33,731 nucleotides of DNA from positions 1 to 33,731 of the forward strand of contig CAZWEB010000003.1 in the NCBI GenBank assembly GCA_964632115.1. Reading direction: 5' to 3'. A program made the translations under genes and the position numbers. The notes beneath the pieces are model-generated. The model had not been told where the DNA came from. It saw only the letters and a program-made list of their open reading frames with translations, and did not search any database. Below are positions 6,355-24,003 of the stretch, piece by piece; the stretch's first letter is position 1, and each line of letters opens with the position of its first letter. The stretch is from Candidatus Woesearchaeota archaeon (lineage in GTDB: Archaea > Nanobdellota > Nanobdellia > Pacearchaeales > GW2011-AR1).

Positions 6355-7770
6355 ATGGAAGACAAAAGGGTAAAAAAGGTATTATTAATGAATATGCCCT
6401 CTACTATAAAGGTTTATGGCAAATCAGCTCTAAAAGGCATAATTGCTCCAAGACCCTTTGTTTCAATGGCAGAACTAGCTGCTTCTATTCTTGCTGCAAG
6501 TGCAGATTGCAAAATTCTTGACTTGCAGATTTCAGAAAAACCATATCAAGAGATAGTTGAAACAATAGATAATTACAAGCCCGATTTTATTGGGATAACA
6601 TTTACAACTCTTTTATTTGAAGAAGCAGAAAAAATTTCAAAATTTATAAAGGAAAAATATCCTAAAATAACAATAATCGCAGGAGGAGTTCACTCATCAA
6701 TCTATCCAGAGGAAGTAGCAAAAAGCCCATTTATAGATATTGTTGTTTATGGAGAAGGAGATGTGACTCTTCAGGAAATTGCTAAAGGAGTTCCTCTTAA
6801 AAATATAAAAGGAATTGTTTACAAAACTGCTGCAGGAATAATTAAAAAAAATCTTGCAAGAGAATTAATTCAAGATTTAGATTCTTTACCTATGCCTGCC
6901 TGGCATTTATTCAATCCAAGTATTTACATGAATCCAAAGGCAATTGCAAAAGAATCTCCTGTAGGAACAATAGGAACCTCTAGGGGATGTGTTTATGGTT
7001 GTGTCTATTGTAATAAATCTGTTTTTGGAAGAAAATTCAGGGCAAAATCTGTTAAAAGAGTCGTTGATGAATTTGAATTATTGAAAAAATCCGGTTTTAA
7101 TGAAGTTCATGTGTGGGATGATATGTTTGCCACTGACTTAAACAGGGCCAAAGAAATCTGTCTTGAGATAATTAAAAGAAATTTAAATCTAACATGGCAA
7201 TTAGAGTGTGGTGTCAGAGTTAATTCAGTAGATTTAGAGTTTTTTAAGCTTGCTAAAAAAGCAGGTTGTTACAAAGTTGCTTTTGGTTTTGAATCTGGAA
7301 ATGATTATATTCTAAAAACAATAAATAAAGGGGCAACAACCGAACAGGCAAGAAATGCAGTTAAATGGGCTAAAGAAGCAGGTATGGAAACATCTGGTTT
7401 CTTCATGCTAGGCTTGCCAGAAGATACAATTGAAACAATGGAACAAACAATTGATTTTGCATGTTCTTTGGATTTAGATTATGCAAAAGCAACTATCCTT
7501 GTACCTTTGCCATCTACACCTATTTTTGAAGAATTTGAGAAAAAAGGACTTTTAAAAACAAAAGACTGGACAAAATATAATTTTCATACTGCTTCAAAAG
7601 TATATGATCATCCCCATTTAGACTGGGAAACTTTAGAAGGGTATTATAATAAATTCCATAAAAGATTCTATTTCCGTCCAAGTTACATGATTAAGAGGCT
7701 TATAAAAAGCATAAAAAAAGGAGAGCTTATAGATAACATGAAAACAGCATTTAATACATTTGTAAAATAA
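6355..7770 (+). CDS. Cobalamin-binding (class B) radical SAM enzyme
   Basis: The N-terminal B12-binding-domain signatures are KVLLMNMP, IIAGGVHSS and VYGEGDVT. These are followed by SRGCVYGCVYC (CxxxCxxC) and FGFESG. Confidence 0.85.
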   Translation: MEDKRVKKVLLMNMPSTIKVYGKSALKGIIAPRPFVSMAELAASILAASADCKILDLQISEKPYQEIVETIDNYKPDFIGITFTTLLFEEAEKISKFIKEKYPKITIIAGGVHSSIYPEEVAKSPFIDIVVYGEGDVTLQEIAKGVPLKNIKGIVYKTAAGIIKKNLARELIQDLDSLPMPAWHLFNPSIYMNPKAIAKESPVGTIGTSRGCVYGCVYCNKSVFGRKFRAKSVKRVVDEFELLKKSGFNEVHVWDDMFATDLNRAKEICLEIIKRNLNLTWQLECGVRVNSVDLEFFKLAKKAGCYKVAFGFESGNDYILKTINKGATTEQARNAVKWAKEAGMETSGFFMLGLPEDTIETMEQTIDFACSLDLDYAKATILVPLPSTPIFEEFEKKGLLKTKDWTKYNFHTASKVYDHPHLDWETLEGYYNKFHKRFYFRPSYMIKRLIKSIKKGELIDNMKTAFNTFVK

Positions 7771-7955
7771 AAAATTTAAGTAACTAAATAAAATGCAAGA
7801 ACAAACAAAATGCAAAAACCAACAAAATTAATACAACCCTATATAAACTTGTTAATTAGAAATCTAAAATATTCTAGTTATGGTATTGTTAATTCAAGAG
7901 GATTATCTAAATTAAATATTGAGGGAAGAAATTTGTCATTCTTGCCATTAATATA

Positions 7956-9308
7956 ATGGAAAAACAAAAAACAATAATAATCTTAGGCGCAGGAATAACA
8001 GGCCTAGTTTCTGCATATTATCTCTCTCAAAAATATAAAGTTATTCTCATAGAAAAAGAGAAAAATATTGGAGGCATGTCTTATTCTCTTAATTATGAGA
8101 ACTTTATTTTAGATTATGGTCCTCATAAGATTTATACACAGTTGCCAGGAATTCTTGAGGAAATTGAACATGTGCAGAGTTTAATAAGAATAAAAAAGAA
8201 AAATTCAATCTATCTTCAAGAAAGTTATTTTGACTTCCCATTAAGTATAAAACAGGTTGCAACAAAAATGCCTTCAAAAGCATTTAGTGCTGGTTTGGAT
8301 ATAGTATTTAAATCTTTTAAAAAACTTCCAGAGGATTCTTATGAAAATTTCTTAAAAAACAGATTTGGAAAAACCCTTTATAATTTATCTTTCAGAGATT
8401 ATGCTGAAAAAATTTGGAAGTCTAATCCAAAAGAATTAGATGCAGAATTAGCAAAAAGAAGAATTGCAATCTCAAATATTTTTGAATTAATAAAAAGTGT
8501 TTTATTCAAAGACACCGAAAAAATAAGCGCAGATTTTTTTTATTATGCCTCCAAGGGCTCTAAACAATTAATTGATTCACTTGCACAAAAAATAAAAGAA
8601 AACCAAGGTGAAATAATCTTAAATAAACCAATTCAGGAAATAAACACTGATAAAAACAAGATAATTTCAGTGAGAATTAATGGAAAAACAATAAAATCTG
8701 ATTTTGTGCTTTCTACAATCCCTCTGCAGGATTTAATCTTGCTGCTAAAACCAAAAACAACAGAAGACATAAAAAATGCAGCTTCAGAACTAAGATATAC
8801 TGACACAAAAATAATTTATTTTATATTAAACAAGCCCAGAATCTCAGAAAATAACTGGATTTTCTTTCCTGAAAAAAATTTCTTGTTTCATAGAATAAGC
8901 GAGCAAAAATCATTCTCCCCAGAGACTTGCCCAGAAAATAAAACAGCCTTAATGGTAGAAACAACAGCTGAGTTAACAAAAGAAAATATTGAACTACTAA
9001 AAAAACAATTGGTTGACTTGAATTTATTTCAAGAGCAAGATATTGAAAAAATATTTATAAAGCAACTGAAAAAAGCATACCCTCTTTATAAAATAGGTTT
9101 TAAAGAAAATCTTAACAAAGTATTAGATTATCTCGATACACTAGAGAATTTTCTTACTATTGGAAGACACGGACTTTTTAATTATAACAATATGGATCAA
9201 TGCTGGGATATGGCAAAAAAAGCAGCAGAACATATAACTGCTAAAGGAACAAAAGAACGGTGGGAAGAATTGAGAAAGGAATTTGATAACTATAAGATTG
9301 TTGATTAA
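7956..9308 (+). CDS. FAD/NAD(P)-binding oxidoreductase (amine-oxidase / protoporphyrinogen-oxidase / UDP-galactopyranose-mutase-like fold)
   Basis: An N-terminal dinucleotide fold is present (IIILGAGITGLVSAYYL ... IEKEKNIGG). The C-terminal motif is TIGRHGLFNYNNMDQ. Confidence 0.7.
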   Translation: MEKQKTIIILGAGITGLVSAYYLSQKYKVILIEKEKNIGGMSYSLNYENFILDYGPHKIYTQLPGILEEIEHVQSLIRIKKKNSIYLQESYFDFPLSIKQVATKMPSKAFSAGLDIVFKSFKKLPEDSYENFLKNRFGKTLYNLSFRDYAEKIWKSNPKELDAELAKRRIAISNIFELIKSVLFKDTEKISADFFYYASKGSKQLIDSLAQKIKENQGEIILNKPIQEINTDKNKIISVRINGKTIKSDFVLSTIPLQDLILLLKPKTTEDIKNAASELRYTDTKIIYFILNKPRISENNWIFFPEKNFLFHRISEQKSFSPETCPENKTALMVETTAELTKENIELLKKQLVDLNLFQEQDIEKIFIKQLKKAYPLYKIGFKENLNKVLDYLDTLENFLTIGRHGLFNYNNMDQCWDMAKKAAEHITAKGTKERWEELRKEFDNYKIVD

Positions 9309-9325
9309 ACAGATTTAAAATTAAA

Positions 9326-10696
9326 ATGGCAAAAATATTATTTATTCAGGCAAATTATGATATTGATAATCCTCAAGATTATACTCCTTGGATGCCACTT
9401 GCTTTAATTGAATTAGCCACCCTATTAAAAGAAAAAAATCACGGGGTAAAAATTCTTGATAGAAATCTTTTTTTTAATAATGCGGGATTAATAAGAATCC
9501 TGAAAAATTTTAATCCAGATATTGTTGGCATGACTTGTTATACCTCTCCTGTTATAAAAGATATAAAGCAAATTTCTAAGATAGTTAAAGAAAACTCCAA
9601 CGCTTTGGTGATAATCGGAGGAGTTCACGCAGCTCTTGAACCAAAATCTTTACTAGATTTCCCATATATTGATTATATTGTCAAAGGAGAAGGAGAATAT
9701 CCTCTTCTTGAAATATGCGAGTTAATAGATAAGAAAAAAGCAGATAAAAAAAATATTTTGAAAATAGAAAATATAAATCATAATGAAATGAGGCCTTTTA
9801 TTAATCTTACTGAGCTCCCCATAATGGACTATGATTTGATTGATGTAAAAAAATATCCTGTAGCAACTTTTTATACAAGCAGAGGATGTCCTGGCAGATG
9901 CAGATTTTGTTATAATCTTGGAAGGAAATTGCGTTTTTATGACACTGAAAAAACAATCCAAATGATTACCCAGGTTCTTGACAAATATCACATAAGAGAA
10001 TTCACAATAGCTGATGATAACTTTGCAAATCTGAGCAACAGAACTACAAAAATTTGCAATTCTCTTTCAAAGTATAATGCTATTTTTCATATTTTTTTAA
10101 GGGTAGACCAGACTTTTGATAAAGTTATGAAAAACCTGAAAAAAGCAGGTTGTTGGTCAATTCAGTTTGGTTTTGAATCAGGAAGCCAGAGAGTTTTAGA
10201 TTTTATAAACAAAGACACAACAATTCAGCAGAATATAAATGCAGTAAAGCAATGCAGAAAATATAAAATATTTGTTGACGGCAGCTTTATGCTTGGATTG
10301 CCTACAGAGACAATAAAAGAAATGAATGAAACAGTTAGTTTCATAAAAAAATACAAGCCAGATTCAGTGGATATTAAAGTTTACAAACCTTATCCCTCAA
10401 CAGAGCTTTATGAATACAGTATTGCCAATAAACTAATGGAGCGTCCTAAAACACTCGAGGAGTGGGAAAATTTCTGCGATTTAAAAGAAGGATATCCTAA
10501 TGTAAGCAAAATTCCAACACCCCTTTTATTAAAAACAGTAAACCATCTAAGCAAAACTTCTTCATCAATTTATTTTAAGAAGGCTATTTTGCTTCTTGCA
10601 AATAGGCATTTTAATTACACTTTATTTAAAACCAAACAAATTATAAAGAACAAACTTGGCTTAAAGCACGACGATCAGAAAACAAGAAATTATTAA
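9326..10696 (+). CDS. Cobalamin-binding (class B) radical SAM enzyme
   Basis: Motifs seen: ILFIQANYD, IIGGVHAA, VKGEGEYP, then SRGCPGRCRFC and FGFESGS. Confidence 0.85.
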   Translation: MAKILFIQANYDIDNPQDYTPWMPLALIELATLLKEKNHGVKILDRNLFFNNAGLIRILKNFNPDIVGMTCYTSPVIKDIKQISKIVKENSNALVIIGGVHAALEPKSLLDFPYIDYIVKGEGEYPLLEICELIDKKKADKKNILKIENINHNEMRPFINLTELPIMDYDLIDVKKYPVATFYTSRGCPGRCRFCYNLGRKLRFYDTEKTIQMITQVLDKYHIREFTIADDNFANLSNRTTKICNSLSKYNAIFHIFLRVDQTFDKVMKNLKKAGCWSIQFGFESGSQRVLDFINKDTTIQQNINAVKQCRKYKIFVDGSFMLGLPTETIKEMNETVSFIKKYKPDSVDIKVYKPYPSTELYEYSIANKLMERPKTLEEWENFCDLKEGYPNVSKIPTPLLLKTVNHLSKTSSSIYFKKAILLLANRHFNYTLFKTKQIIKNKLGLKHDDQKTRNY

Positions 10697-10813
10697 AATA
10701 ATTGCTGGTTTTATCTTTCATGTCTTTGTTAAAATAGTGGGAGACAGCATAATATTTCTTTCTATAAATTACTGCTATCTCCTGAGAATAGGACACTCCC
10801 CTCTTTCATTATC

Positions 10814-10821
10814 TTTAAAAA
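10814..10821 (+). promoter_or_regulatory. Candidate archaeal TATA box for the flippase gene
   Basis: The sequence is ATCTTTAAAAATA. The box is centred 25.5 nt upstream of ATG 10843. Confidence 0.45.
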
Positions 10822-10842
10822 TACATTTTTCTTCTTGATTTT

Positions 10843-12381
10843 ATGATTAAGAAAAATGAAAACCTGACTAAACAGGCAGTTGAAGGAAGTTTCTGGGCGG
10901 GATTTGCTACTTTCTTGAATAGATTTGCCTCTTTATTTTTTAGTATTCTCTTTGCAAGACTTTTACTGCCTGAAAATTTTGGACTTTATAGCTTGACAAT
11001 GTCTATTGCATTTATCTTTATGACTTTTGCTGATTTGGGAATCAATGAAACCCTCATAAGATTTTTTTCATTATACAAGAATAAAGAGAAATCAACAGCA
11101 TATTTCCAATATATCTTTAAAATAAAAATTTTGCTGTCTTTTTTAGTCTCTTTAATTCTTTTTTTAGGCGCTTACCCACTTTCTTTTTTTATTTTTAAAA
11201 AACCAGAATTATTCTATCCCCTAATCGTAGCTTCAATATTCATATTATCCTCGCTATTTGTTTATTTTTTCTCATCGTTTTTTTATGCTATTAAAAAAAC
11301 CAAATATATTGGAATAAATGAAATATTTTTTCAATTAGTAAGAATTATTTTAATCATTTTTGTTTTTATTTTAATTTCCTCTGAATACCATGTTATTGCA
11401 ATAATTATTGCTTCAATTTTAACTAATCTATTTGTTTTATTATTGCTACTCTCTTGGTTGAAAAAACTTGCTCCGGGAATATTTAAAAAATCAAATCAAG
11501 TAATTGACAAAAAATCCCTTCTCAAATTTTTAGGTTATGCTACCATTGCTCAAATTTCTGGAATTTTTTTCAGTTATATTGATACTTTAATGCTTGGATT
11601 TTTTGTATCTTTTAGTTATCTTGGATATTATCGCATAGCTTTTAGCTTGGTTTTTGGAGTAATAGGGCTTTTTACTTATCTTAGCGTGGTTTTAATGCCT
11701 TTTTTTACCCGTTTGGAAAACAAGAGATTAAAAAGAGCCTTTAATAAATCAGTTAGATTTATTCTTATCTTTTCAATCCCTTCTGCATTTGGAATACTCG
11801 CTCTTGGAAGGTATTTCATAAGATTGCTCTATGGATATGAATATCTTCAGGCGCAATATCCATTTTATGTATTATCTTTTTTATTAATTCTCTGGATTCC
11901 AACAACTTTATTAATGACTTTATTTTTCTCGAAAGGAAAAATAAAAGAAATCCTTAAAATTAAAGTTTTTGCCTTAGTTTTAAATGTACTCCTGAATTTT
12001 GTTTTAATCTATTCTTTGATGTCCATTTCAGAGCTATGGGCTGTAGTCGGAGCCTCAATTGCAACACTCTTATCTTGGGTTTTTATATTTGTCAGCATGA
12101 TTATTATTTCAAGAAAAAAATTAAACATATCCTTAGAAAAAATCATTTTTGTAAAACCAATTATCTCAGGAATAATTATGTTTTTATCATTATACTTCTT
12201 AAATAGATTTCTAATTAGGGATATGACTCTTGTTTTAGGAGTATTGGAGATAATAGTCGGAGCATTAATCTATCTGATTTTAATGTATTTGATTAAAGGA
12301 ATTACGAGGGAGGATATGGAAACCCTAAAGAAACTTCCAGTATTTACTAAAATTCAGAGATTTAAAGAACTTAAATCCTAA
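10843..12381 (+). CDS. Wzx/MOP-superfamily oligosaccharide (polysaccharide) flippase
   Basis: The protein has 512 aa and about 12-14 TM helices. The N-terminus is typical of polysaccharide-biosynthesis flippases (GSFWAGFATFLNRFASLFFSILFARLL). It lies in a glycan cluster. Confidence 0.75.
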   Translation: MIKKNENLTKQAVEGSFWAGFATFLNRFASLFFSILFARLLLPENFGLYSLTMSIAFIFMTFADLGINETLIRFFSLYKNKEKSTAYFQYIFKIKILLSFLVSLILFLGAYPLSFFIFKKPELFYPLIVASIFILSSLFVYFFSSFFYAIKKTKYIGINEIFFQLVRIILIIFVFILISSEYHVIAIIIASILTNLFVLLLLLSWLKKLAPGIFKKSNQVIDKKSLLKFLGYATIAQISGIFFSYIDTLMLGFFVSFSYLGYYRIAFSLVFGVIGLFTYLSVVLMPFFTRLENKRLKRAFNKSVRFILIFSIPSAFGILALGRYFIRLLYGYEYLQAQYPFYVLSFLLILWIPTTLLMTLFFSKGKIKEILKIKVFALVLNVLLNFVLIYSLMSISELWAVVGASIATLLSWVFIFVSMIIISRKKLNISLEKIIFVKPIISGIIMFLSLYFLNRFLIRDMTLVLGVLEIIVGALIYLILMYLIKGITREDMETLKKLPVFTKIQRFKELKS

Positions 12382-13807: not shown

Positions 13808-13827
13808 ATAAGTCTTTAAAATTAGAG

Positions 13828-13835
13828 ATTTATAA
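13828..13835 (-). promoter_or_regulatory. Candidate internal TATA box for the class B radical SAM gene starting at 13807
   Basis: The minus strand reads CCTTATAAATC. The box is centred 24.5 nt upstream of ATG 13807. Confidence 0.35.
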
Positions 13836-13847
13836 GGATTGTTAAGA

Positions 13848-16846: not shown

Positions 16847-16848
16847 TT

Positions 16849-17986: not shown

Positions 17987-18007
17987 CATATTGGTGATAT
18001 AAAGCAT

Positions 18008-19123
18008 ATGATTAGATGTGAAGATTTAGCAGACATATTTAAAAAAAATAACTTAACTTTCTTTTCAGGTGTGCCTGACAGCACTTTTAAAGAATGGATG
18101 AAATTTTTAGATGATGGAAATGGCTTGACAAATATACTCGCTGTAAACGAATGTGAAGCCATAGCCATGGTATCAGGATATTATCTTGCAACCAAGAATA
18201 TAGGTGTTGTTTACATGCAAAACTCTGGTCTTGGAAAAACAGTAAATCCATTAACTTCCTTGTGTGATAAAGAGGTTTATTCAATTCCATTAATTCTAAT
18301 GATTGGATTAAGAGGAGAGCCCGGAGAAAAAGATGAGCCGCAACACAAGAAAATGGGCAGGATAACTCTTCCCCTTTTAGATGTTTTGGAAATTCCTTAT
18401 GCAATTTTGCCAAATACTCTTGAAGAAATCTCAAAAGTGATAACTGAGATGAAAAGAGCATCTGTAGAAAAAAACTCTCCTGTGGCAATTATAATAAAAA
18501 AAGGATTATTAGAAGAATACACTTCTAAAAAAACAACAAAAACATATTATGAGATGTCAAGAGAAGACGCTATTAAAACCATAACTAATAATATTCAAAA
18601 TAATGGGGTTATAATTTCAACAACAGGAAAAGCGTCAAGAGAATTATTTGAGTATAGGATACAAAGAAAAGAAAAACCAAAAGATTTTTATACTGTAGGG
18701 GGTATGGGTTGTTCTGCTTCAATTGCAAATGCAATAGCTATGCAAAAACCAAACCTTCCAGTATGGGTTTTTGATGGTGATGGGGCTGTTTTGATGCAGA
18801 TGGGAACATTAGCAACAATTGGAAAATATCGAACAGAAAATCTTTATCATATAGTTTTTGACAATAATTCCTATGATTCAACAGGAGGGCAACCCACAGC
18901 CTCTTCAACAGTTAATTTTGAAAAAATAGCATTAGCCTGCGGCTATAAAACCGCCAGAACAATTCAAAAAAAATCAGATTTAGAAGAGTATCTTAATATT
19001 ATGAAATCGCAAAAAGGCCCGCAGATGCTAATAATAAAAATAAAAAGAGGCGCAAGAAAGGATTTAGGAAGGCCAACCACAACCCCCATAGAAAATAAAA
19101 TTGAGTTTATGGATAATTTATAA
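18008..19123 (+). CDS. ppd: Phosphonopyruvate decarboxylase (ThDP-dependent)
   Basis: The characteristic N-terminus is NNLTFFSGVPDSTFKEW. The ThDP motif is GDGAVLMQMG...(26 aa)...NNSYDSTGGQ. The length of about 370 aa is typical of Ppd rather than the longer acetolactate-synthase-type enzymes. Confidence 0.85.
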   Translation: MIRCEDLADIFKKNNLTFFSGVPDSTFKEWMKFLDDGNGLTNILAVNECEAIAMVSGYYLATKNIGVVYMQNSGLGKTVNPLTSLCDKEVYSIPLILMIGLRGEPGEKDEPQHKKMGRITLPLLDVLEIPYAILPNTLEEISKVITEMKRASVEKNSPVAIIIKKGLLEEYTSKKTTKTYYEMSREDAIKTITNNIQNNGVIISTTGKASRELFEYRIQRKEKPKDFYTVGGMGCSASIANAIAMQKPNLPVWVFDGDGAVLMQMGTLATIGKYRTENLYHIVFDNNSYDSTGGQPTASSTVNFEKIALACGYKTARTIQKKSDLEEYLNIMKSQKGPQMLIIKIKRGARKDLGRPTTTPIENKIEFMDNL

Positions 19124-19139
19124 GGAGATTAAATAAAAA

Positions 19140-20621
19140 ATGAACCCCAAAAAATTCAAAAAAATTATGCTTGTAAATCCTGCAAATACCATGCCCAAGG
19201 ATAGTGTAAGAAGACTAACATCTCCATTGGGTTTAATGTATCTCGGGGCTGTTTTAAAACAAGACAATTATGATGTAAAAATTCTTGATTCTACTTGTGA
19301 GGGTTATTATAACACCCAGATTTCAGGAGAGCATATAACCTACGGGCTGTCAGATGATGAATTTAAAAAAAGAGTAAGAGAATATGAACCTGATCTTGTA
19401 GGGATAACCTCTATGTTTTCTGCTCAGCAGAAAAATTCAATACATCATTGTGATTTAGTAAAATCAGTTAATCCAGAAATTCCAATTGTTCTTGGAGGAA
19501 TACATCCTTCTATTTTAACAGAAGAATCTACAAAAAATTCTTCTGTTGATTTTGTAATCATCGGAGAAGGTGAATATAGAATTATAAAACTTCTAGACGC
19601 CCTAAACAAAAATCAAAAACCAGACTTTGATGGAATTGCTTATAAAAACAAGGACAAGATTATTCTAAATCCAATGATTTCAAGAATAGATAATTTAGAT
19701 TCATTGCCTTTGCCTGCCCGGGATTTAGTAGAGATGGAAAAATACATTCAAATAAGTGTTCCTTTTAGCCCGTTTCCAAGAAAAGAACGAGTTGAACAAA
19801 TTATGACAACAAGAGGTTGTCCGTTTAACTGCAATTTTTGTTCAACAGTCCAATACTGGGGGCATCATTTTAGAGCAAGATCTGTGGAAAACGTCTTAAA
19901 AGAGGTTGATGAATTAGTAAGCAAATACAAGATACAAGAGATACAATTTTCAGATGATAATCTAACTGTTAATAAAAAAAGAGCAAAAGATCTTTTTAGA
20001 AGACTCAAAGATTATAATCTCTCTTGGTGCACTCCAAATGGATTAATGGTTCAAACTCTTGATGAAGAAATGATAAAGTTAATGGCAGAATCAGGAGCAT
20101 ATCAATTCAGTTTTGCAATAGAATCTGGGAGTGATAGGGTTAGAGAAAAAATAATTAATAAAAAGGTTCCTCCAAAAAAAGACGTTAAAGAATTAGTTGA
20201 ATTGTGCCATGATTATAATATTCAGATCCATGGATTGTTTATAGTAGGATTTCCAGGAGAAAAGCGTCCAGAAATAGATGAAACATTGCAATATCCATTT
20301 GATGTTAATCTTGACAGTGCATCTTTTTTTATTGCAAATCCCATGCTGGGCTCAAGGCTTTATTTTGAATGCAAGGAAAAAGGATATATACATGAAGAAG
20401 AAATGACATGGAATGTTAAAAATGCTGAAATCAACATCCCTGCAGACTCTCCAGATTTTGTGATGCCTAATTCAGAACTAGAAGAATTAGTTAATCAAAA
20501 AGCAAGAGAATTTAATGAATATGCTAAAACTAAAAATCCGGGAGCATGGGATACTAAATTCAGCCAATTCCTCAAAAGGCATGGAGATAATGCAGATTTA
20601 ATCTTGGGAAGAGTGACCTAA
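19140..20621 (+). CDS. Cobalamin-binding (class B) radical SAM enzyme, Fom3-like (candidate phosphonate C-methyltransferase)
   Basis: Class B motifs are VLGGIHPS, IIGEGEYR and TRGCPFNCNFC. Other segments match my recollection of Fom3: KIMLVNPA, PLGLMYLGAVLKQDNYDVKILD, EGYYN, YGLSDDE, LMAESGAYQFSFAIESGS, SASFFIANP. An SD-like AGGAG lies at 19123-19127. Confidence 0.8.
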   Translation: MNPKKFKKIMLVNPANTMPKDSVRRLTSPLGLMYLGAVLKQDNYDVKILDSTCEGYYNTQISGEHITYGLSDDEFKKRVREYEPDLVGITSMFSAQQKNSIHHCDLVKSVNPEIPIVLGGIHPSILTEESTKNSSVDFVIIGEGEYRIIKLLDALNKNQKPDFDGIAYKNKDKIILNPMISRIDNLDSLPLPARDLVEMEKYIQISVPFSPFPRKERVEQIMTTRGCPFNCNFCSTVQYWGHHFRARSVENVLKEVDELVSKYKIQEIQFSDDNLTVNKKRAKDLFRRLKDYNLSWCTPNGLMVQTLDEEMIKLMAESGAYQFSFAIESGSDRVREKIINKKVPPKKDVKELVELCHDYNIQIHGLFIVGFPGEKRPEIDETLQYPFDVNLDSASFFIANPMLGSRLYFECKEKGYIHEEEMTWNVKNAEINIPADSPDFVMPNSELEELVNQKAREFNEYAKTKNPGAWDTKFSQFLKRHGDNADLILGRVT

Positions 20622-22348
20622 AGATTACCAAGAATATCCCTTACAAAGTTTAAGTCTTTTATATTGTGGATTTCCAGCCAGCCGCCGTTTGTTTCATGTA
20701 CTGCTACTTTGAAATCTCTGTTAACTAGTTCCTGAAACATATCTGTATCAACTGCTTTTCCAAAACTTTCTGCCCCGTGGAATTTCCCAGTATGATTTGA
20801 TTTTAAGTCTTCATATACTTTGATTAGATTTTCAGCACCTTGTTTTGAAAATTTTGCCAAGCCAATGAACTCATGAGTCATTAATTCTTTTGGGATGCTT
20901 CTGCCAATTAAAACAACTTCATCATTAGAAGGCCTTAATCTTTGATATTGGATTTGTTTTCCTTTTTTTGTTATAACTCCATCAAGTTTCTTATCTATCT
21001 CATGTTTATGATAAAGATAAGAATTATCAACAACAATTACAATATCTTCTTTTCTTTCAAGAAGCTCATTTATCAATCTTTTGTCCAAAAGAATATCTGA
21101 ATTAATATAAATAAATCCTTTTTTCATTTTTTCTTTAGCCTGCATAAGACTATGAATCATCCCCAAAGAAGAGTATTCTGGATTATCAAAATAATTAATA
21201 TCTGAAATATTAAATTTTTCTTTCTGCCACCCAATTATGGCATTGATATTATTCAATCCCAGGTCTTTGAATATCTGAATTTGATGTTCAAGTAATGTTC
21301 TCCCATTTATATTAATTAAAGCTCTTGGAATATTTCCCATTGCTTGTTTGAATTCCTCATTTTCTTCTCCAGCAGCAGGAATAATCACAGAAGGAGTTTT
21401 TGAAAGCAATTCATCTTTTTCTTTTATATCTAAGAAGCCAACTTTATTAAAAATTTCTTTTACAGAAATAATATGTGGCTCTGCTTCTAATGCTCTTTCA
21501 TTCTCAAGAATTATGCTTCCAACATTATGCATTGCTTTGTATGCTGCGCGCAGCATATGATTTGCATAGATTACAATATTAAATCCATGTTCTTCTAATT
21601 CAGACTCTCTTACTGAACTATATGTTGTTGGTACGCATACTAAAGGTTTTCTTATGCCTATCTCTTTGCATAATTGAGAATATTCTTTTGCAAATTTAAT
21701 CACTTCTTCAGGGCTAGTAGACTTTGAATGAATCATTATTCCATCTGCGCCACTTTCCAAGTATTTTCTTGCGCGCAGCAAGGCATCATTAATCTCTTTT
21801 CCTGCAATTAAACTTTCTATCCTTGCTATAATCATAAAATCATCAGATCTTTGTATTTTCTTTCCTGCTTCAATTTTTTCAGCAAAACGCTCTGGTTCTT
21901 CTAAATGCTGAATTGTTCCTGATTCAAGGCTATTTCTTTTTGGAAATACCTTATCTTCTATTATAACTGCAGAAACACCCATTCTTTCTAATTTTGGAAC
22001 TAAATATTCAAAATGATGTATGTCTCCTCCTGTATCACCATCAATAATCAATGGCTTGTTAGTAACTTCTAAAATTTCAGATACTGTTCTTAATCTAGAA
22101 TCAAACCCAATAATCTCTATATCTGGATGTCCTTTTGAAGCAGAATCAGTTAAACTGCTTTCCCAGAAAAAATCAAATTCATTGATTTTTTTAATTCCAT
22201 TGTTATCTATCTCTGCACTTAAATCATTTGCAATCAAGGCGCTTATTGCACTATGAACTTCTATTCCCCTTACCAGTTTTTTAATCTCCAACGCTCTTTT
22301 GAGTTTTTTTCGCCTCTCTTCAGGAGATATTAAATATCTCAATGTCAT
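20618..22348 (-). CDS. pepM: Phosphoenolpyruvate mutase fused to a C-terminal nucleotidyltransferase domain
   Basis: The N-terminal half has isocitrate-lyase/PEP-mutase superfamily motifs (DGDTGG) and the PepM-discriminating signature IIEDKVFPKRNS (EDKxxxxxNS). The C-terminal half has an NTP-transferase start (VIIPAAGE...PRALININGRTLLEHQI). ATG 22348 is preferred over TTG 22360 because a TATA-like box is centred 25.5 nt upstream of it. Confidence 0.75.
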   Translation of the reverse strand: MTLRYLISPEERRKKLKRALEIKKLVRGIEVHSAISALIANDLSAEIDNNGIKKINEFDFFWESSLTDSASKGHPDIEIIGFDSRLRTVSEILEVTNKPLIIDGDTGGDIHHFEYLVPKLERMGVSAVIIEDKVFPKRNSLESGTIQHLEEPERFAEKIEAGKKIQRSDDFMIIARIESLIAGKEINDALLRARKYLESGADGIMIHSKSTSPEEVIKFAKEYSQLCKEIGIRKPLVCVPTTYSSVRESELEEHGFNIVIYANHMLRAAYKAMHNVGSIILENERALEAEPHIISVKEIFNKVGFLDIKEKDELLSKTPSVIIPAAGEENEEFKQAMGNIPRALININGRTLLEHQIQIFKDLGLNNINAIIGWQKEKFNISDINYFDNPEYSSLGMIHSLMQAKEKMKKGFIYINSDILLDKRLINELLERKEDIVIVVDNSYLYHKHEIDKKLDGVITKKGKQIQYQRLRPSNDEVVLIGRSIPKELMTHEFIGLAKFSKQGAENLIKVYEDLKSNHTGKFHGAESFGKAVDTDMFQELVNRDFKVAVHETNGGWLEIHNIKDLNFVRDILGNL

Positions 22349-22369
22349 GAGTAAGAACAATATACCATA

Positions 22370-22377
22370 TTTTTAAA
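22370..22377 (-). promoter_or_regulatory. Candidate archaeal TATA box for the pepM-NTase gene
   Basis: The minus strand reads ATATTTAAAAATA. The box is centred 25.5 nt upstream of ATG 22348. Confidence 0.45.
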
Positions 22378-22459
22378 TATTTATATACTCAATTTTTCCT
22401 GTTTTAAAACAAAAACCCAAGGTAAAATTCAATGATATATACTTCAAATTGCAATTAAA

Positions 22460-22469
22460 TTTAAAAATA
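22460..22469 (+). promoter_or_regulatory. Candidate archaeal TATA box for the class B radical SAM gene at 22489
   Basis: TTTAAAAATA is centred 24.5 nt upstream of the ATG. Confidence 0.45.
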
Positions 22470-22488
22470 AGAAAAATTCTTTGATAAT

Positions 22489-24003
22489 ATGAAGATAAAA
22501 TCCATGAAATCCTCTGATTTAAGAGATATAAGGAAAATTTCTAATGATAAAAGAAAAAAAGTTCTGCTGATTAATTGCAGAAGAAAAGGATATCTTCCAG
22601 CCCTGATGCCCCACATAGGACTTGGAATCTTGGCGGGAATTTTAATAAGAAGAGGGCACGAAGTCCTGGTTATTGATTATCTGCTTACTAATAATGTTCC
22701 CCCTATTGAAATGTTTTTAAAAAAATTTAATCCGGATGTAGTTGGAATTACTTCATATACTTGGAATATATTTGAAGTAAAAAAAACAATTGATGAGATA
22801 AGAAATTTTTCATCCTCTTTGCCAGTGATTATAGGCGGTCCACACACATCTATGTTTACAGATGATTTCAAACAAGACAAAAGAATTGATTATCTTGTTT
22901 TAGGAGATGGAGAACTGCTTATAATTGATTTGATTGAAAAAGCTAAAAGACAAAAAAAACCAGAAATACTATTCTCTAAAGAACTTGCAAAACTAGATGA
23001 TATTCCTTTTCCAAATTACCAGTGTTTTTACAAATGGGAAACAGTTCTTAGTTATCCCCTTTATACCTCCAGAGGGTGCCCACATAATTGCAATTATTGT
23101 TCTGTTTGGATCTTATGCAACAGGGTCTGGAGAACAAGAAGTTCTGAAAAATGCATAGAAGAACTTAGGCTTGCAAAAAAAATTTTCAAAAAAGACCTGC
23201 ATGTTTTTGTCGTAGATGACAGTCCGGCAATAGACAAAAAAAGATTTGCTGATTTTCTAAGATTATATATTAAAAGCAGATTAAGAATGAGACTCGAAGT
23301 CTATAATATGAGGGCTGATAATATTACAGAAGAAATACTCTCTTTGCTTAAAAAAACAGGCACTAAACATTTTACGGTGGCAGTAGAACACACAGATCCA
23401 GAAGTCTGTCAGTTGATGGACAAGCATGAAACTATTGAACAAATTGAAAATGCAATAAACCTGGTTAAAAAACAGGGATTTTTACTGACTCTTTTTTTTG
23501 TTATTGGTTTGCCAAAAGACAGTTTTGAAAAAACAAAAAAATTAATTAAATTTGCCAGAAAATTCAAGCCTTATGCTATCAATTGGAATATTTTTCAGTA
23601 TCTTGGCCCAAATAGGGCTGTAGAATGGTTCAAGGAGAATGGGAAAGTCGACGCAATTAATTACTCTCAGCCCTCTTTTAAAAAAGAAATTTTTTATCCA
23701 GAAGGAAAGCCTTTTGCAGAATATTCTGGCTTTACAAAACATGAGATAGAAAAAGCATATTTTATGGCAATCTTGAGGACAATATCTCCAAGTCTTAGGC
23801 TCAGAGATGCAGTAAGAATATTCAAAACAATCTCAAAATATAATCTCCAGGCAGATTTTTTTTATTGGCTTCCGAGAGGATTTTTAAAATCCCTAAGGAC
23901 CAAGTTTTATCTTTTTCAGTCTGCAGTAAATACTGTAAGAAAAGAAGGTATTATTAAAACTTTAAGAAAAATTATATACCTAAAGAAATTAGGAAGACTT
24001 TGA
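22489..24003 (+). CDS. Cobalamin-binding (class B) radical SAM enzyme
   Basis: Motifs seen: KVLLINCR, IIGGPHTS, VLGDGELL, SRGCPHNCNYC, VAVEHTD. Confidence 0.8.
   Translation: MKIKSMKSSDLRDIRKISNDKRKKVLLINCRRKGYLPALMPHIGLGILAGILIRRGHEVLVIDYLLTNNVPPIEMFLKKFNPDVVGITSYTWNIFEVKKTIDEIRNFSSSLPVIIGGPHTSMFTDDFKQDKRIDYLVLGDGELLIIDLIEKAKRQKKPEILFSKELAKLDDIPFPNYQCFYKWETVLSYPLYTSRGCPHNCNYCSVWILCNRVWRTRSSEKCIEELRLAKKIFKKDLHVFVVDDSPAIDKKRFADFLRLYIKSRLRMRLEVYNMRADNITEEILSLLKKTGTKHFTVAVEHTDPEVCQLMDKHETIEQIENAINLVKKQGFLLTLFFVIGLPKDSFEKTKKLIKFARKFKPYAINWNIFQYLGPNRAVEWFKENGKVDAINYSQPSFKKEIFYPEGKPFAEYSGFTKHEIEKAYFMAILRTISPSLRLRDAVRIFKTISKYNLQADFFYWLPRGFLKSLRTKFYLFQSAVNTVRKEGIIKTLRKIIYLKKLGRL

What the first reader, a model, noticed from the sequence alone, without database searches (positions are those of the whole stretch)
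6355..24003. Six cobalamin-binding (class B) radical SAM paralogues in about 18 kb of one island
Seen in sequence: ORFs at 6355, 9326, 12371(-), 14644(-), 19140 and 22489 all share one architecture. Each has an N-terminal Rossmann-like domain with GG[VIP]H and G[ED]GE motifs:
- IIAGGVHSS / YGEGD
- IIGGVHAA / KGEGE
- IIGGVHVT / TGEGE
- IVGGIHAT / IGEGE
- VLGGIHPS / IGEGE
- IIGGPHTS / LGDGE

About 80-100 aa later each has xRGCxxxCxxC. They are clearly diverged from one another and are not recent duplicates.

Established knowledge: class B rSAMs mostly methylate unactivated C or P centres (Fom3, PhpK, GenK, ThnK, CysS, hopanoid methylases). A few do other radical chemistry (BchE-like cyclases).

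Inference:
- This density in a glycan/phosphonate locus, rather than a RiPP or antibiotic cluster, is unusual.
- It suggests iterative or multi-site radical methylation of a phosphonate head group, sugar or lipid.
- It also implies a strong cobamide requirement in an organism that probably cannot make cobamide. That would be a possible host-dependence point.
Basis: partly seen in the sequence, partly recalled or inferred. Interest (0 to 1): 0.85.

Follow-up and report, generated by a model that had tools for sequence, protein, structure and literature searches.

The report
Six B12-radical-SAM genes, archaeal glycan island
A small, probably host-dependent archaeon carries a cell-surface sugar and phosphonate gene island with six different vitamin-B12-type radical enzymes; two of them most likely add methyl groups to an activated aminophosphonate in the way the fosfomycin enzyme Fom3 does, and none of the six has a known product.

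Summary
All six ORFs have a B12-binding domain and a radical-SAM core above Pfam cut-offs. They share only 22-32% identity, and each has its own orthologues at 55-81% elsewhere. The window holds four further radical SAM genes, ten in all.

The island is a mosaic surface-glycan locus of a Woesearchaeota-like DPANN archaeon, next to SecD.

- **B5 (19140) and B4 (14644)** belong to a conserved module: PEP mutase, phosphonopyruvate decarboxylase, AEP transaminase, nucleotidyltransferase, rSAM, CDP-alcohol transferase. Relatives fuse these genes (AEP transaminase + nucleotidyltransferase + B5; B4-like + cytidylyltransferase + PEP mutase). B5 is 35% identical to Fom3. I infer Fom3-like methylation of nucleotide-activated 2-aminoethylphosphonate.
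- **B1, B2, B3 and B6** sit in separate cassettes with glycosyltransferases. B1, B2 and B3 recur in islands with no phosphonate genes within 10 kb, so they probably tailor sugars. The chemistry is unknown: methylation, or HpnJ/AprD4-like rearrangement.

Arrays of five to seven such genes also occur in Deltaproteobacteria and Omnitrophota glycan loci, so six is high but not unique. No paralogue reaches any curated family cut-off, and no paper I found assigns these arrays. Cobamide dependence cannot be tested from this window.

The parts
80..1642 (+). SecD-like export protein with PDZ domain; chromosomal flank that anchors the island
   Evidence: PF02355 62.8 bits. Orthologues at 60-63% identity flank comparable islands in L085, L014 and L023.
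3240..5039 (+). PMT_2 / GT-C-type membrane glycosyltransferase, which would use a lipid-phosphate-sugar donor
   Evidence: PF13231 56.9 bits. 43% orthologue in the same position in L085.
5048..5782 (+). GT2 of the polyprenyl/dolichyl-phosphate-sugar synthase type (AglJ/ArnC/PpgS-like); first gene of the GT2-MT-B1-flavoprotein cassette
   Evidence: PF00535 127 bits. Best NCBIfam models are AglJ, ArnC and PpgS, all below cut-off. 59-73% orthologues in L020, L084, L085 and L087.
5791..6300 (+). Small SAM-dependent methyltransferase of the cassette
   Evidence: PF13489 56.3 bits. 55-73% orthologues in L020, L084 and L085.
6355..7770 (+). B1: class-B radical SAM, HpnJ-like; predicted tailoring enzyme for a lipid-linked sugar
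   Evidence: PF02310 64.1 and PF04055 91.5 bits. Best NCBIfam is HpnJ, 235.6 bits against a cut-off of 577.6. Orthologues at 81/75/74/65% in L084, L020, L089 and L085. After GT2 and MT and before the flavoprotein in L084, L020 and L085; in L089 a B1 orthologue and the flavoprotein are separated by two other genes.
7956..9308 (+). FAD-dependent oxidoreductase (amine-oxidase / UDP-galactopyranose-mutase-like fold), partner of B1
   Evidence: PF01593 69 bits and PF03275 28.4 bits. PRK07208-type, below cut-off. 54-59% orthologues in L084, L085, L087, L089 and L090.
9326..10696 (+). B2: class-B radical SAM of a rare orthogroup
   Evidence: PF02310 59.4 and PF04055 79.1 bits. Only about five 50%-identity representative clusters at 48% identity or more among 1.84 billion representatives. 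65% orthologue in L087/L088, in an island with no phosphonate genes.
10843..12381 (+). Wzx/MurJ-type flippase
   Evidence: PF01943 95.8 bits. 62% orthologue in L084.
12371..13861 (-). B3: class-B radical SAM of a DPANN-restricted orthogroup; last gene of the AEPT-NTP-B4-CDPOH-B3 operon here, but not bound to phosphonate genes elsewhere
   Evidence: PF02310 66.6 and PF04055 100 bits. About 65 relatives at 46-64% identity; all of those that carry a source name are Nanoarchaeota, Pacearchaeota or 'archaeon'. Orthologues in L084 (64%), L085 (63%) and L087 (56%); the last two have no Ppm, Ppd or AEPT within 10 kb.
13848..14603 (-). Divergent CDP-alcohol phosphotransferase-family membrane protein; predicted to move the phosphonyl group from the CMP-phosphonate to an alcohol acceptor
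   Evidence: PF01066 39.2 bits, cut-off 22. DxxDGxxAR...G...D is present but the fourth Asp is Ser; it is Ser, His or Gly in all 8 relatives aligned. Adjacent to B4 orthologues in L003, L084 and L090.
14644..16131 (-). B4: class-B radical SAM of the conserved phosphonate module
   Evidence: PF02310 64.6 and PF04055 85.8 bits. Orthologues at 69/63/59/57/55/50% in L003, L016, L012, L084, L090 and L004, always beside phosphonate-pathway or CMP-transfer genes. A B4-like domain is fused to CTP_transf_like + PEP_mutase in L089.
16121..16852 (-). Stand-alone nucleotidyltransferase (NTP_transf_3)
   Evidence: PF12804 57.9 bits. 58% orthologue directly upstream of B5 in L003. Forms the middle domain (48% identity) of the L090 AEPT-NTP-B5 fusion.
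16849..17955 (-). 2-aminoethylphosphonate (AEP) transaminase
   Evidence: TIGR03301 443.1 bits, cut-off 360.8.
18008..19123 (+). Phosphonopyruvate decarboxylase
   Evidence: TIGR03297 451.2 bits, cut-off 312.5.
19140..20621 (+). B5: class-B radical SAM of the Fom3 / SD_1168 subgroup; predicted C-methyltransferase acting on nucleotidyl-AEP
   Evidence: PF02310 72.5 and PF04055 90 bits. NF038361, 352 bits against a cut-off of 575. 35% identity over 491 columns to Fom3 of the S. viridochromogenes fosfomycin cluster. 2430 relatives with E<1e-20, some fused to a nucleotidyltransferase. AEPT-NTP-B5 fusions in L084 and L090. Model fold matches TsrM, QCMT and TokK.
20618..22360 (-). PEP mutase with a C-terminal nucleotidyltransferase domain
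   Evidence: TIGR02320 349.3 bits, cut-off 319.55, and PF12804 31.1 bits. 68% orthologue in L003.
22489..24003 (+). B6: class-B radical SAM of a very rare orthogroup, always paired with the next gene
   Evidence: PF02310 60.2 and PF04055 74.5 bits. Only about 19 proteins above 34% identity among 5.8 billion. 64-65% orthologues in L089 and L090, each followed by a Gtf3_C-like glycosyltransferase.
24000..25148 (+). Gtf3_C-like glycosyltransferase, partner of B6 (4-base overlap with it)
   Evidence: No Pfam hit for the window protein itself. Weak NCBIfam sugar-transferase match. Orthologues at 43-54% in L089 and L090 carry PF26337.
25211..33030 (+). Downstream sugar-tailoring operon: GT9, rSAM-SPASM (26203), RmlD-like reductase, rSAM-SPASM (28328), split transketolase (29404 and 30129), rSAM-SPASM (30607), NUDIX, rSAM (32137)
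   Evidence: Pfam hits. GT9 (60%) and the 30607 rSAM (47-59%) recur beside B3 or B6 orthologues in L087 and L090.
33319..33731 (+). IS200-type Y1 transposase gene, cut by the window end; right edge of the island
   Evidence: PF01797 88.9 bits. Reading frame.

Best explanation
The region is a mosaic cell-surface glycan and phosphonate tailoring island of a Woesearchaeota-like DPANN archaeon. It lies between SecD and an IS200 transposase gene. The six class-B radical SAM genes are independent, long-diverged tailoring enzymes spread over at least three cassettes.

**1. Phosphonate module (shown by profile scores)**
- PEP mutase makes phosphonopyruvate, the decarboxylase makes phosphonoacetaldehyde, and the transaminase makes 2-aminoethylphosphonate (AEP).
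- Inferred: a nucleotidyltransferase then makes CMP-AEP.
- Inferred: B5, the Fom3 relative, uses a 5'-deoxyadenosyl radical and methylcobalamin to C-methylate the two-carbon chain of CMP-AEP. This parallels Fom3 turning CMP-2-hydroxyethylphosphonate into CMP-2-hydroxypropylphosphonate.
- Inferred: B4 carries out a second radical step, most simply a second methylation, on the same nucleotide-bound phosphonate.
- Inferred: the divergent CDP-alcohol-transferase homologue then moves the modified phosphonyl group onto a hydroxyl of a lipid or glycan and releases CMP.

**2. GT2-MT-B1-flavoprotein(-B2)-Wzx cassette with the GT-C enzyme**
- Inferred: the GT2 loads a sugar on a polyprenyl phosphate.
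- Inferred: B1 and B2 modify it before it is flipped and transferred outside the cell. The precedents recalled here (from my own knowledge of their substrates) are HpnJ and MoeK5, which act on lipid-linked sugars.

**3. B6 and B3**
- B6 with its fixed Gtf3-like glycosyltransferase partner, and B3, are further sugar-tailoring units that swap between islands.
For: **Domain architecture.** Confirmed for all six. The fold is confirmed for B5.

**Phosphonate enzymes.** Ppm, Ppd and the AEP transaminase pass NCBIfam equivalog cut-offs.

**Conserved synteny.** Ppm(-NTP)/Ppd/AEPT/NTP/B5/B4/CDPOH occurs in a Nanoarchaeota single-cell genome (L003). Parts of it occur in L004, L012, L016, L020 and L025.

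**Fusions in relatives.**
- NTP+B5: P0027, P0037, P0071.
- AEPT+NTP+B5: L084 and L090. The AEPT domain scores 418 bits, above the TIGR03301 cut-off.
- B4-like+CTP_transf+Ppm: L089.

**Link to Fom3.**
- B5 is 35% identical to Fom3, which I identified by its FomA and FomB neighbours.
- Both score best on NF038361: 352 bits for B5 and 293 for Fom3.
- Fom3 recognises cytidylyl-HEP, according to the title of Sato et al. 2017 as listed in PMC9204698.
- CMP-AEP formation by Ppm-linked nucleotidyltransferases is described in PMC6697681.

**Other cassettes.**
- B1 follows GT2 and MT and precedes the flavoprotein in L084, L020 and L085; L089 also has a B1 orthologue and the flavoprotein nearby.
- B6 is always followed by the Gtf3-like glycosyltransferase.
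- B1, B2 and B3 orthologues occur in L085 and L087 with no Ppm, Ppd or AEPT within 10 kb.
- The same GT2 + GT-C + class-B-array theme occurs in bacterial loci L017 and L057.
- HpnJ is the best curated model for B1. A review co-clusters HpnJ with Fom3 and MoeK5 in a sequence similarity network (PMC9204698).
Against: - No paralogue reaches any curated family cut-off, so no chemistry is established.
- The substrate, the position methylated and even methyl transfer itself are inferred.
- SD_1168, the named member of B5's best model, has an unknown physiological substrate and may do C- or P-methylation (PMC9204698).
- The window has two nucleotidyltransferase domains, and their division of labour is unexplained.
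- The CDP-alcohol transferase homologue lacks the fourth Asp of the family signature.
- B3 sits in the phosphonate operon in the window and in L084, so a phosphonate role for it here is not excluded.
- The two B6 orthologues seen both lie in islands that carry phosphonate genes, so a phosphonate-linked role for B6 is also not excluded.
- Loci were fetched with a B5 query, so co-occurrence counts for B4 and B5 are biased.
- Cobalamin binding is untested. AprD4 is among the closest fold and sequence matches, and to my knowledge it does not use cobalamin.
Confidence: 0.55

Rival explanations
1. One reading: all six enzymes act together as methylases on one product, methylating a single phosphonate head group (or its carrier) iteratively or at several sites.
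For: All six lie within 17.6 kb around the phosphonate genes. B3 is co-operonic with AEPT-NTP-B4-CDPOH: its start overlaps the CDPOH stop. Iterative class-B methylases such as TokK and CysS are described in PMC9204698.
Against: B1, B2 and B3 orthologues occur in related islands with no Ppm, Ppd or AEPT within 10 kb. B1 recurs with the GT2, MT and flavoprotein genes and B6 with a Gtf3-like glycosyltransferase, whatever else is present. A two-carbon aminophosphonate offers too few positions for six distinct enzymes.
Confidence: 0.08
2. Several of the six are not methyltransferases. They would carry out other radical chemistry on sugars: ring contraction as proposed for HpnJ, OxsB-like rearrangement, AprD4-like dehydration or deoxygenation, or epimerisation. 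Some may not use cobalamin at all.
For: The best curated models are the non-methylases HpnJ (B1, B2) and BchE (B3, B4, B6). AprD4 is the best PDB sequence match for B1 and B4 and a top fold match for B5. Reviews list HpnJ and BchE as class-B non-methylases (PMC9204698). A SAM methyltransferase, a flavoprotein and SPASM rSAMs in the same operons fit multi-step sugar remodelling.
Against: All scores are far below family cut-offs, so the best-hit names carry little weight. According to the reviews, most characterised class-B enzymes are methylases. B5's closest characterised relative, Fom3, is a methylase.
Confidence: 0.3
3. B5 (and perhaps B4) is a P-methyltransferase that makes a phosphinate, as PhpK does and as shown in vitro for SD_1168.
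For: B5's best curated model is named 'Sden_1168 family B12-binding radical SAM P-methyltransferase' (352 bits). It also hits the PhpK family at 126 bits.
Against: From established phosphinothricin biochemistry, P-methylation needs a P-H phosphinate substrate. None of the enzymes that make one was detected in the window. Fom3, a C-methylase, hits the same model at 293 bits, so the model name does not discriminate. Fusions with an AEP transaminase point to an ordinary aminophosphonate substrate. SD_1168's physiological reaction is unknown (PMC9204698).
Confidence: 0.08
4. The enzymes tailor membrane lipids (isoprenoid chains or polar head groups) rather than glycans, as HpnP/HpnR do for hopanoids or the archaeal GDGT-modifying radical SAM enzymes do.
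For: The CDP-alcohol transferase homologue scores best, though weakly, on archaetidylinositol-phosphate synthase (39 bits). Class-B enzymes that act on lipids exist (PMC9204698; PMC11214058, listed). A phosphonolipid head group is a plausible product of the phosphonate module.
Against: The operons are made of GT2, GT-C, GT9, Gtf3-like, Wzx and RmlD-like genes. No lipid-synthesis gene is present. No hit to HpnP/HpnR or ladderane models comes near cut-off.
Confidence: 0.1
5. It is a RiPP (proteusin-like) cluster in which several class-B rSAMs methylate a peptide.
For: Arrays of class-B rSAMs are typical of polytheonamide-type clusters (PoyB, PoyC; PMC9204698). Weak hits to RiPP C-methyltransferase models (TIGR03975, 43-100 bits).
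Against: The window is gene-dense, with a largest intergenic gap of 185 bp and no precursor-like ORF. There is no protease, cyclodehydratase or ABC exporter. Every neighbour is a glycan or phosphonate enzyme.
Confidence: 0.02

Closest known systems
[quoted passage not shown]
   Same: B5 is 35% identical to Fom3 over 491 alignment columns, and both score best on NF038361. In both systems the PEP mutase carries a nucleotidyltransferase domain and a phosphonopyruvate decarboxylase is adjacent. Relatives fuse the rSAM to the nucleotidyltransferase, which fits a nucleotide-bound substrate.
   Different: An AEP transaminase stands where the aldehyde reductase would be, so the substrate would be the amino compound and not the hydroxy compound. 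No epoxidase, FomA or FomB is present. A second module-specific rSAM (B4) and a CDP-alcohol-transferase homologue are present. The context is a surface-glycan island of an archaeon, not an antibiotic cluster. B5 is not a Fom3 orthologue: 35% identity, against more than 100 relatives at 47-71%.
SD_1168 / NF038361 (Shewanella denitrificans class-B rSAM)
   Same: It is the best-scoring curated model for B5, matched end to end (residues 6-480 on profile positions 62-537 of 560).
   Different: The score of 352 is below the cut-off of 575, so B5 is not a member. SD_1168's own physiological substrate is unknown (PMC9204698).
Phosphonyl tailoring (Pnt) pathway: Ppm-Ppd-AEP transaminase plus PntC cytidylyltransferase making CMP-AEP for cell-surface decoration (PMC6697681)
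   Same: Ppm, Ppd and the AEP transaminase are above equivalog cut-offs. A nucleotidyltransferase is fused to Ppm. The neighbourhood encodes glycan biosynthesis.
   Different: A term search of that paper found no mention of radical SAM enzymes or CDP-alcohol transferases. Here two class-B rSAMs are inserted between activation and transfer, which predicts a modified phosphonate rather than plain AEP.
HpnI/HpnJ (hopanoid GT2 plus a class-B rSAM that contracts the ring of a lipid-linked glucosamine) and MoeK5 (class-B C-methylase in moenomycin biosynthesis)
   Same: B1 scores best on HpnJ over its full length (235.6 bits) and sits two genes after a GT2 (GT2, MT, B1). HpnJ, MoeK5 and Fom3 co-cluster in published similarity networks (PMC9204698).
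   Different: The score is far below the 577.6 cut-off. There are no hopanoid or moenomycin genes. The partners are a small SAM methyltransferase, a flavoprotein, Wzx and a GT-C enzyme.
Structurally characterised class-B enzymes TsrM, TokK and MgmA/QCMT, and the related AprD4
   Same: The predicted B5 fold superposes with TM 0.64-0.71 on these structures: a Rossmann domain plus a partial TIM barrel.
   Different: Sequence identity is only 15-21%. The C-terminal helical region differs. To my knowledge AprD4 works without cobalamin, so the fold does not prove cobalamin use.

Membership tests
Class B (cobalamin-binding) radical SAM enzymes | N-terminal B12-binding Rossmann domain (PF02310) above the gathering score | tested here: met
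   59.4-72.5 bits against a cut-off of 32.1 for all six.
Class B (cobalamin-binding) radical SAM enzymes | Radical SAM core (PF04055) with a CxxxCxxC cluster motif after the B12 domain | tested here: met
   74.5-100 bits against a cut-off of 29.5. CxxxCxxC at residues 188-229. R-G-C...C..C is invariant.
Class B (cobalamin-binding) radical SAM enzymes | Three-dimensional fold like the solved class-B enzymes | tested here: met
   B5 only: pLDDT 92.6; best matches are TsrM, MgmA, AprD4 and TokK, E 1e-25 to 1e-18, TM 0.64-0.71. Not modelled for the other five.
Class B (cobalamin-binding) radical SAM enzymes | Actual binding and use of a cobamide | not testable with these tools
   No DxHxxG motif is present. 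From my own knowledge this is usual for class B, where cobalamin is bound without a protein His ligand. Also from my own knowledge, AprD4 has the fold without cobalamin.
Sden_1168 family (NF038361), the curated model nearest to B5 and to Fom3 | Whole-protein score at or above the curated cut-off (575 bits) | tested here: not met
   B5 scores 352.2 bits. The other five score 69-130 bits.
Fom3-type CMP-phosphonate C-methyltransferase | Orthology to Fom3 | tested here: not met
   35% identity to Fom3 of the S. viridochromogenes fosfomycin cluster. B5's own orthologues are 47-71% identical. This is a related subfamily, not the same one.
Fom3-type CMP-phosphonate C-methyltransferase | Works with a cytidylyltransferase that supplies a nucleotide-bound phosphonate | tested here: inconclusive
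   Genomic evidence only: adjacency to nucleotidyltransferase genes and NTP-rSAM, AEPT-NTP-rSAM and rSAM-CTP_transf-Ppm fusions in relatives. The substrate was not assayed.
PhpK/BcpD P-methyltransferases (TIGR04479) | Score at or above 600 bits | tested here: not met
   Best of the six is 139.6 bits (B1); B5 scores 126.
HpnJ (TIGR03471) | Score at or above 577.6 bits, with hopanoid gene context | tested here: not met
   B1 scores 235.6 and B5 173.5. No hopanoid genes are present.
BchE anaerobic cyclase (TIGR02026) | Score at or above 481 bits | tested here: not met
   124-198 bits.
AEP biosynthesis / phosphonyl tailoring pathway | PEP mutase, phosphonopyruvate decarboxylase and AEP transaminase each above the equivalog cut-off | tested here: met
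   TIGR02320 349.3 > 319.55; TIGR03297 451.2 > 312.5; TIGR03301 443.1 > 360.8.
AEP biosynthesis / phosphonyl tailoring pathway | AEP-specific cytidylyltransferase (PntC activity) | not testable with these tools
   NTP_transf_3 domains are present on Ppm and as a separate gene. Their specificity is unknown.
CDP-alcohol phosphotransferases (PF01066) | Complete signature D-x2-D-G-x2-A-R-x8-G-x3-D-x3-D | tested here: not met
   The Pfam score is 39.2 against a cut-off of 22. The fourth Asp is Ser in the window protein, and Ser, His or Gly in all eight aligned relatives.
RiPP (proteusin-type) clusters with class-B rSAM arrays | A precursor peptide gene and a peptide-processing or export gene in the cluster | tested here: not met
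   Intergenic gaps are 185 bp or less. All ORFs have glycan, phosphonate or rSAM annotations.

The most novel reading that the evidence does not exclude
Two linked readings are not excluded by the evidence.

- DPANN archaea, and several bacterial phyla that carry the same module, may decorate their surfaces with a so far undescribed natural phosphonate. This would be a C-methylated (singly or doubly) aminoalkylphosphonate made on the CMP-activated intermediate by two dedicated class-B radical SAM enzymes.
- More generally, arrays of class-B radical SAM enzymes may be a recurrent, uncharacterised tailoring layer of GT2/flippase/GT-C extracytoplasmic glycosylation systems in both domains. That would make cobamide supply a requirement for building the cell surface of organisms whose lineage rarely has a complete cobalamin pathway.
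Probability: 0.35. Interest if true: 0.8.

Novelty: new variant of a known kind. Interest (0 to 1): 0.62.

Why it matters
- **New phosphonates.** To my knowledge, class-B radical SAM enzymes are known in phosphonate chemistry only from antibiotic pathways (Fom3, PhpK). Here a widespread, well-conserved relative (over 2400 proteins with E<1e-20) sits in cell-surface phosphonate modules of archaea and many uncultured bacterial phyla. This predicts new natural phosphonates and gives SD_1168-type enzymes a testable physiological substrate.
- **A wider pattern.** The same survey shows that arrays of class-B enzymes recur in lipid-carrier glycosylation loci, a context in which I found no assigned function.
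- **Host dependence.** Six cobamide-type enzymes in one surface island of a reduced-genome archaeon would link vitamin scavenging to surface structure. That bears on host dependence in DPANN, but it needs bin-level checking.

Tried and rejected
- **Rfam and tRNA scans.** Neither found anything, so there is no cobalamin riboswitch and no tRNA-marked island border.
- **Base composition.** GC is a uniform 28-33% across the window, so there is no compositional sign of recent transfer.
- **PDB sequence searches.** Only distant matches (QCMT, AprD4, OxsB, TsrM, TokK), which is not enough to assign chemistry.
- **Source contig.** Looking up the window's own contig by the B5 protein returned only a 2-kb duplicate contig and no extra context.
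- **SD_1168 primary paper.** PMC4362910 is not held, so its gene context could not be read.
- **Literature.** Seven searches found no paper on class-B rSAMs in cell-surface phosphonate or glycan islands. The phosphonate surveys checked by term search (PMC8942020, PMC9381506, PMC8931226, PMC6697681) do not discuss these enzymes.
- **Representative search for B2.** The job was lost once and rerun.
- **RiPP reading.** Rejected for lack of a precursor gene.
- **'One iterative system' reading.** Rejected because the paralogues travel separately between islands.
- **Not attempted.** Structure models for the other five paralogues; a metagenome-wide neighbourhood survey; any search of the rest of the genome bin for cobamide genes (not available).

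Full report
**1. Observation**

The window is AT-rich (GC 28-33% throughout) and gene-dense. I call them B1 to B6.

- Each matches PF02310 (B12-binding, 59-72 bits, cut-off 32.1) at the N-terminus and PF04055 (Radical_SAM, 74-100 bits, cut-off 29.5) after it.
- The quoted GG[VIP]H and G[ED]GE motifs and the RGCxxxCxxC motif are present and invariant in the alignment. The spacing between GGxH and the Cys motif is 81-111 residues.
- Pairwise identity is 22-32%.
- A ColabFold model of B5, built on 34 homologues, has pLDDT 92.6. It finds TsrM, MgmA/QCMT, AprD4 and TokK as its best structural matches, with TM 0.64-0.71.
That makes ten in about 27 kb.

**2. Where it sits**

- On the left are a SecD-like gene and a YdjM-like gene. 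On the right, at 33319 to the window end, is an IS200-type transposase gene.
- SecD orthologues at 60-63% identity flank comparable islands in an unclassified archaeal MAG (L014), a Woesearchaeota MAG (L023) and a metagenome contig (L085).
- Where a source names them, the closest relatives of B3, B5 and B6 are Nanoarchaeota, Woesearchaeota, Pacearchaeota or 'archaeon'.
- I therefore take the organism to be a Woesearchaeota-like DPANN archaeon, and the region to be a variable surface-glycan island at a fixed chromosomal site.

**3. Anatomy**

Three operon groups can be read from strand and overlaps and from the profile hits.

- **(a) Plus strand, 3240-12381.** GT-C/PMT_2 glycosyltransferase, GT2 of the polyprenyl-phosphate-sugar synthase type (best models AglJ, ArnC, PpgS), small SAM methyltransferase, B1, FAD oxidoreductase, B2, Wzx flippase.
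- **(b) Phosphonate genes.**
  - Minus strand, 17955-12371: AEP transaminase (TIGR03301 443 > 360.8), nucleotidyltransferase, B4, CDP-alcohol-transferase homologue, B3.
  - Plus strand: phosphonopyruvate decarboxylase (TIGR03297 451 > 312.5), then B5.
  - Minus strand: PEP mutase (TIGR02320 349 > 319.6) with a C-terminal nucleotidyltransferase domain.
- **(c) Plus strand, 22489-33030.** B6, a Gtf3-like glycosyltransferase, GT9, rSAM-SPASM, RmlD-like reductase, rSAM-SPASM, split transketolase, rSAM-SPASM, NUDIX, rSAM.

**4. Each paralogue has its own history**

I fetched 78 genome loci with a profile of the B5 family and ten contigs through the B3, B5 and B6 homologues. I then clustered all 193 class-B rSAMs in them. 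Each of the six falls in a different orthogroup.

| Paralogue | Orthologues (identity) | Recurring context |
|---|---|---|
| B1 | L084 81%, L020 75%, L089 74%, L085 65% | After GT2 and MT and before the flavoprotein in L084, L020 and L085; B1 and the flavoprotein both present in L089 |
| B2 | L087/L088 65% | Rare: about five 50%-identity representative clusters at 48% identity or more among 1.84 billion |
| B3 | L084 64%, L085 63%, L087 56% | About 65 relatives at 46-64%, named ones all DPANN |
| B4 | L003 69%, L016 63%, L025 63%, L012 59%, L084 57%, L090 55%, L004 50% | Beside phosphonate-pathway or CMP-transfer genes |
| B5 | 2430 relatives with E<1e-20; 47-71% identity across archaea, Riflebacteria, Omnitrophota, Planctomycetia and others | Phosphonate module |
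| B6 | L089 64%, L090 65% | Very rare (about 19 proteins above 34% identity in 5.8 billion); always followed by the Gtf3-like glycosyltransferase |

**5. What ties B5 and B4 to the phosphonate**

- The block Ppm(-NTP)/AEPT/Ppd/NTP/B5/B4/CDP-alcohol transferase is contiguous in a Nanoarchaeota single-cell genome, L003. It recurs in part in L004, L012, L016, L020 and L025.
- Relatives fuse the genes:
  - nucleotidyltransferase + B5: P0027, P0037, P0071;
  - AEP transaminase + nucleotidyltransferase + B5 in one 1115-residue protein in L090, and the same type in L084, whose N-terminal domain passes the AEP-transaminase cut-off;
  - a B4-like rSAM + cytidylyltransferase + PEP mutase in L089.
- One fetched locus, L049, is the fosfomycin cluster of Streptomyces viridochromogenes, since FomA and FomB lie directly downstream. 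Its class-B gene is therefore Fom3.
  - B5 is 35% identical to it over 491 columns. The other five are 23-25% identical.
  - Fom3 and B5 share the same best curated model, NF038361: 293 and 352 bits, cut-off 575.
- Fom3 recognises cytidylyl-2-hydroxyethylphosphonate, according to the title of Sato et al. 2017 as listed in PMC9204698. Ppm-linked nucleotidyltransferases that make CMP-AEP are described in PMC6697681.
- The simplest reading is as follows:
  - AEP is made and nucleotidylated.
  - B5 methylates the carbon chain of the nucleotide-bound AEP.
  - B4 performs a second radical step on the same intermediate.
  - The CDP-alcohol-transferase homologue installs the product on an alcohol acceptor.
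- The pathway enzymes are shown by profile scores. Everything after AEP is inferred.

**6. What separates B1, B2, B3 and B6 from the phosphonate**

- L085 has SecD, YdjM, PMT_2, GT2, MT, B1, the flavoprotein, B3, another class-B gene and Wzx. L087 has B2, B3, GT9, a Gtf3-like glycosyltransferase, the transketolase genes and the 30607-type rSAM.
- tblastn with the window's Ppm, Ppd and AEPT finds nothing in either locus.
- B1's best curated model is HpnJ (235.6 bits over the full length, cut-off 577.6). HpnJ is proposed to contract the ring of a hopanoid-linked glucosamine, and it co-clusters with Fom3 and MoeK5 in published networks (PMC9204698).
- With a polyprenyl-phosphate-sugar-type GT2 upstream and a flippase and GT-C enzyme in the same operon, B1 and B2 most plausibly modify a lipid-linked sugar before export.
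- B6 is tied to its glycosyltransferase partner. The two B6 orthologues seen both lie in islands that also carry phosphonate genes, so its independence from the phosphonate is not shown.
- B3 occupies a variable slot. It follows the CDP-alcohol transferase in the window and in L084, whereas B6 takes that position in L090.

**7. How unusual is six?**

- I used an HMM built from the six and required both domains. The 78 genome loci (about 21 kb each) carry the following numbers of class-B genes: one (34 loci), two (22), three (9), four (7), five (3), six (1), seven (2). These are the counts after removing the window and the earlier loci L001-L005, which that call also counted.
- The richest loci are Deltaproteobacteria (L017, L022, L019) and Omnitrophota (L057, L012, L030). 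Of these six, only L012 has phosphonate genes.
  - L017 reads YfhO (GT-C), GT2, MT, then seven class-B genes.
  - L057 reads flavoprotein, deacetylase, GT2, six class-B genes, PMT_2-TPR.
- DPANN relatives carry one to four.
- Single proteins with up to four class-B rSAM domains also exist: P0295, at 2331 residues, has these plus a SPASM-type one.
- Six is thus the highest count seen among DPANN relatives here, but the phenomenon is recurrent.
- None of these arrays is assigned. No paralogue reaches any NCBIfam cut-off, and seven literature searches found nothing on them.

**8. Caveats**

- Cobalamin binding is not shown. There is no DxHxxG motif, which to my knowledge is normal for this class.
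- AprD4 is among the nearest fold and sequence matches, and to my knowledge it works without cobalamin.
- Methyl transfer is inferred only for B5, by its relation to Fom3. For the others, non-methylase chemistry is a live rival.
- SD_1168's physiological reaction is unknown.
- The CDP-alcohol-transferase homologue lacks the fourth Asp of the family signature, as do all eight aligned relatives.
- Most loci were retrieved with a B5 query, which biases co-occurrence counts.
- The cobamide-dependence idea cannot be tested on one contig. It only agrees with a survey reporting that cofactor pathways, including cobalamin, are rarely complete in Woesearchaeota (PMC8421398).

**9. Verdict**

- The finding is real.
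- The interpretation needs splitting into two parts:
  - a Fom3-like, two-enzyme tailoring of nucleotide-activated AEP, which is a new variant of a known kind and widespread but uncharacterised;
  - four independent sugar-tailoring class-B enzymes of unknown chemistry.
- Interest is moderate to high. The module gives a concrete, testable prediction of new natural phosphonates, and it points to a broader, unstudied link between class-B radical SAM arrays and lipid-carrier glycosylation systems.

Noticed in passing
window 26203-27366, 28328-29404, 30607-31659, 32137-33030: Four more radical SAM genes, three of them with SPASM domains. They are interleaved with an RmlD-like reductase, a split transketolase and a NUDIX hydrolase, which brings the window to ten radical SAM genes. 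The 30607 type recurs (47-59% identity) beside B3 or B6 orthologues in L087 and L090.
   Followed up: partly
window 33319-33731: An IS200-type Y1 transposase gene (PF01797, 88.9 bits) runs off the right end of the window. It may mark the edge of the island.
   Followed up: partly
window 13848-14603 (and L003, L004, L084, L090, L020, L085, L002 homologues): The CDP-alcohol phosphotransferase homologue keeps DxxDGxxAR...G...D but has Ser at the fourth signature Asp. The position is Ser, His or Gly in all eight aligned relatives. This is a whole subfamily without the residue that I recall being described as the catalytic base in this family.
   Followed up: partly
L090 435-3782(-); L084 1-3147(-); L089 3-2702(+): Multi-enzyme fusions in related islands: AEP transaminase + nucleotidyltransferase + class-B rSAM (1115 residues), and class-B rSAM + cytidylyltransferase + PEP mutase.
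   Followed up: yes
L084, L089, L090 (phosphonate modules of related islands): These relatives carry extra genes that the window lacks: phosphoglycerate kinase, Ldh_2-family dehydrogenase, semialdehyde dehydrogenase, cupin, HD hydrolase, Fe-alcohol dehydrogenase and a 2-hydroxyacid dehydrogenase. This suggests different or more elaborate phosphonate products in sister islands.
   Followed up: no
P0295 (2331 aa), also P0297, P0304, P0305, P0334 (hits to B2): Giant proteins with two to four matched class-B radical SAM stretches in tandem. P0295 has five Radical_SAM stretches, four B12-binding domains and one SPASM domain.
   Followed up: partly
L017 1-14815; L022 8553-21221; L057 987-15034: Bacterial loci (Deltaproteobacteria, Omnitrophota) with six or seven class-B radical SAM genes in a row. 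L017 and L057 also have a GT2 and a GT-C (YfhO or PMT_2-TPR) gene. None has phosphonate genes within the fetched locus.
   Followed up: partly
window 16121-16852 and 20618-22360: There are two nucleotidyltransferase domains in one module: one free-standing and one fused to the C-terminus of PEP mutase. The free-standing one also gives a faint hit to the 'Sden_1164 family' model from the same Shewanella cluster as SD_1168. Their division of labour is unexplained.
   Followed up: no
window 2087-3151(-): A GHMP-family kinase (galactokinase/mevalonate-kinase-like, below all cut-offs) lies between the SecD/YdjM flank and the GT-C gene. It may be a sugar-1-kinase that feeds one of the nucleotidyltransferases.
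   Followed up: no
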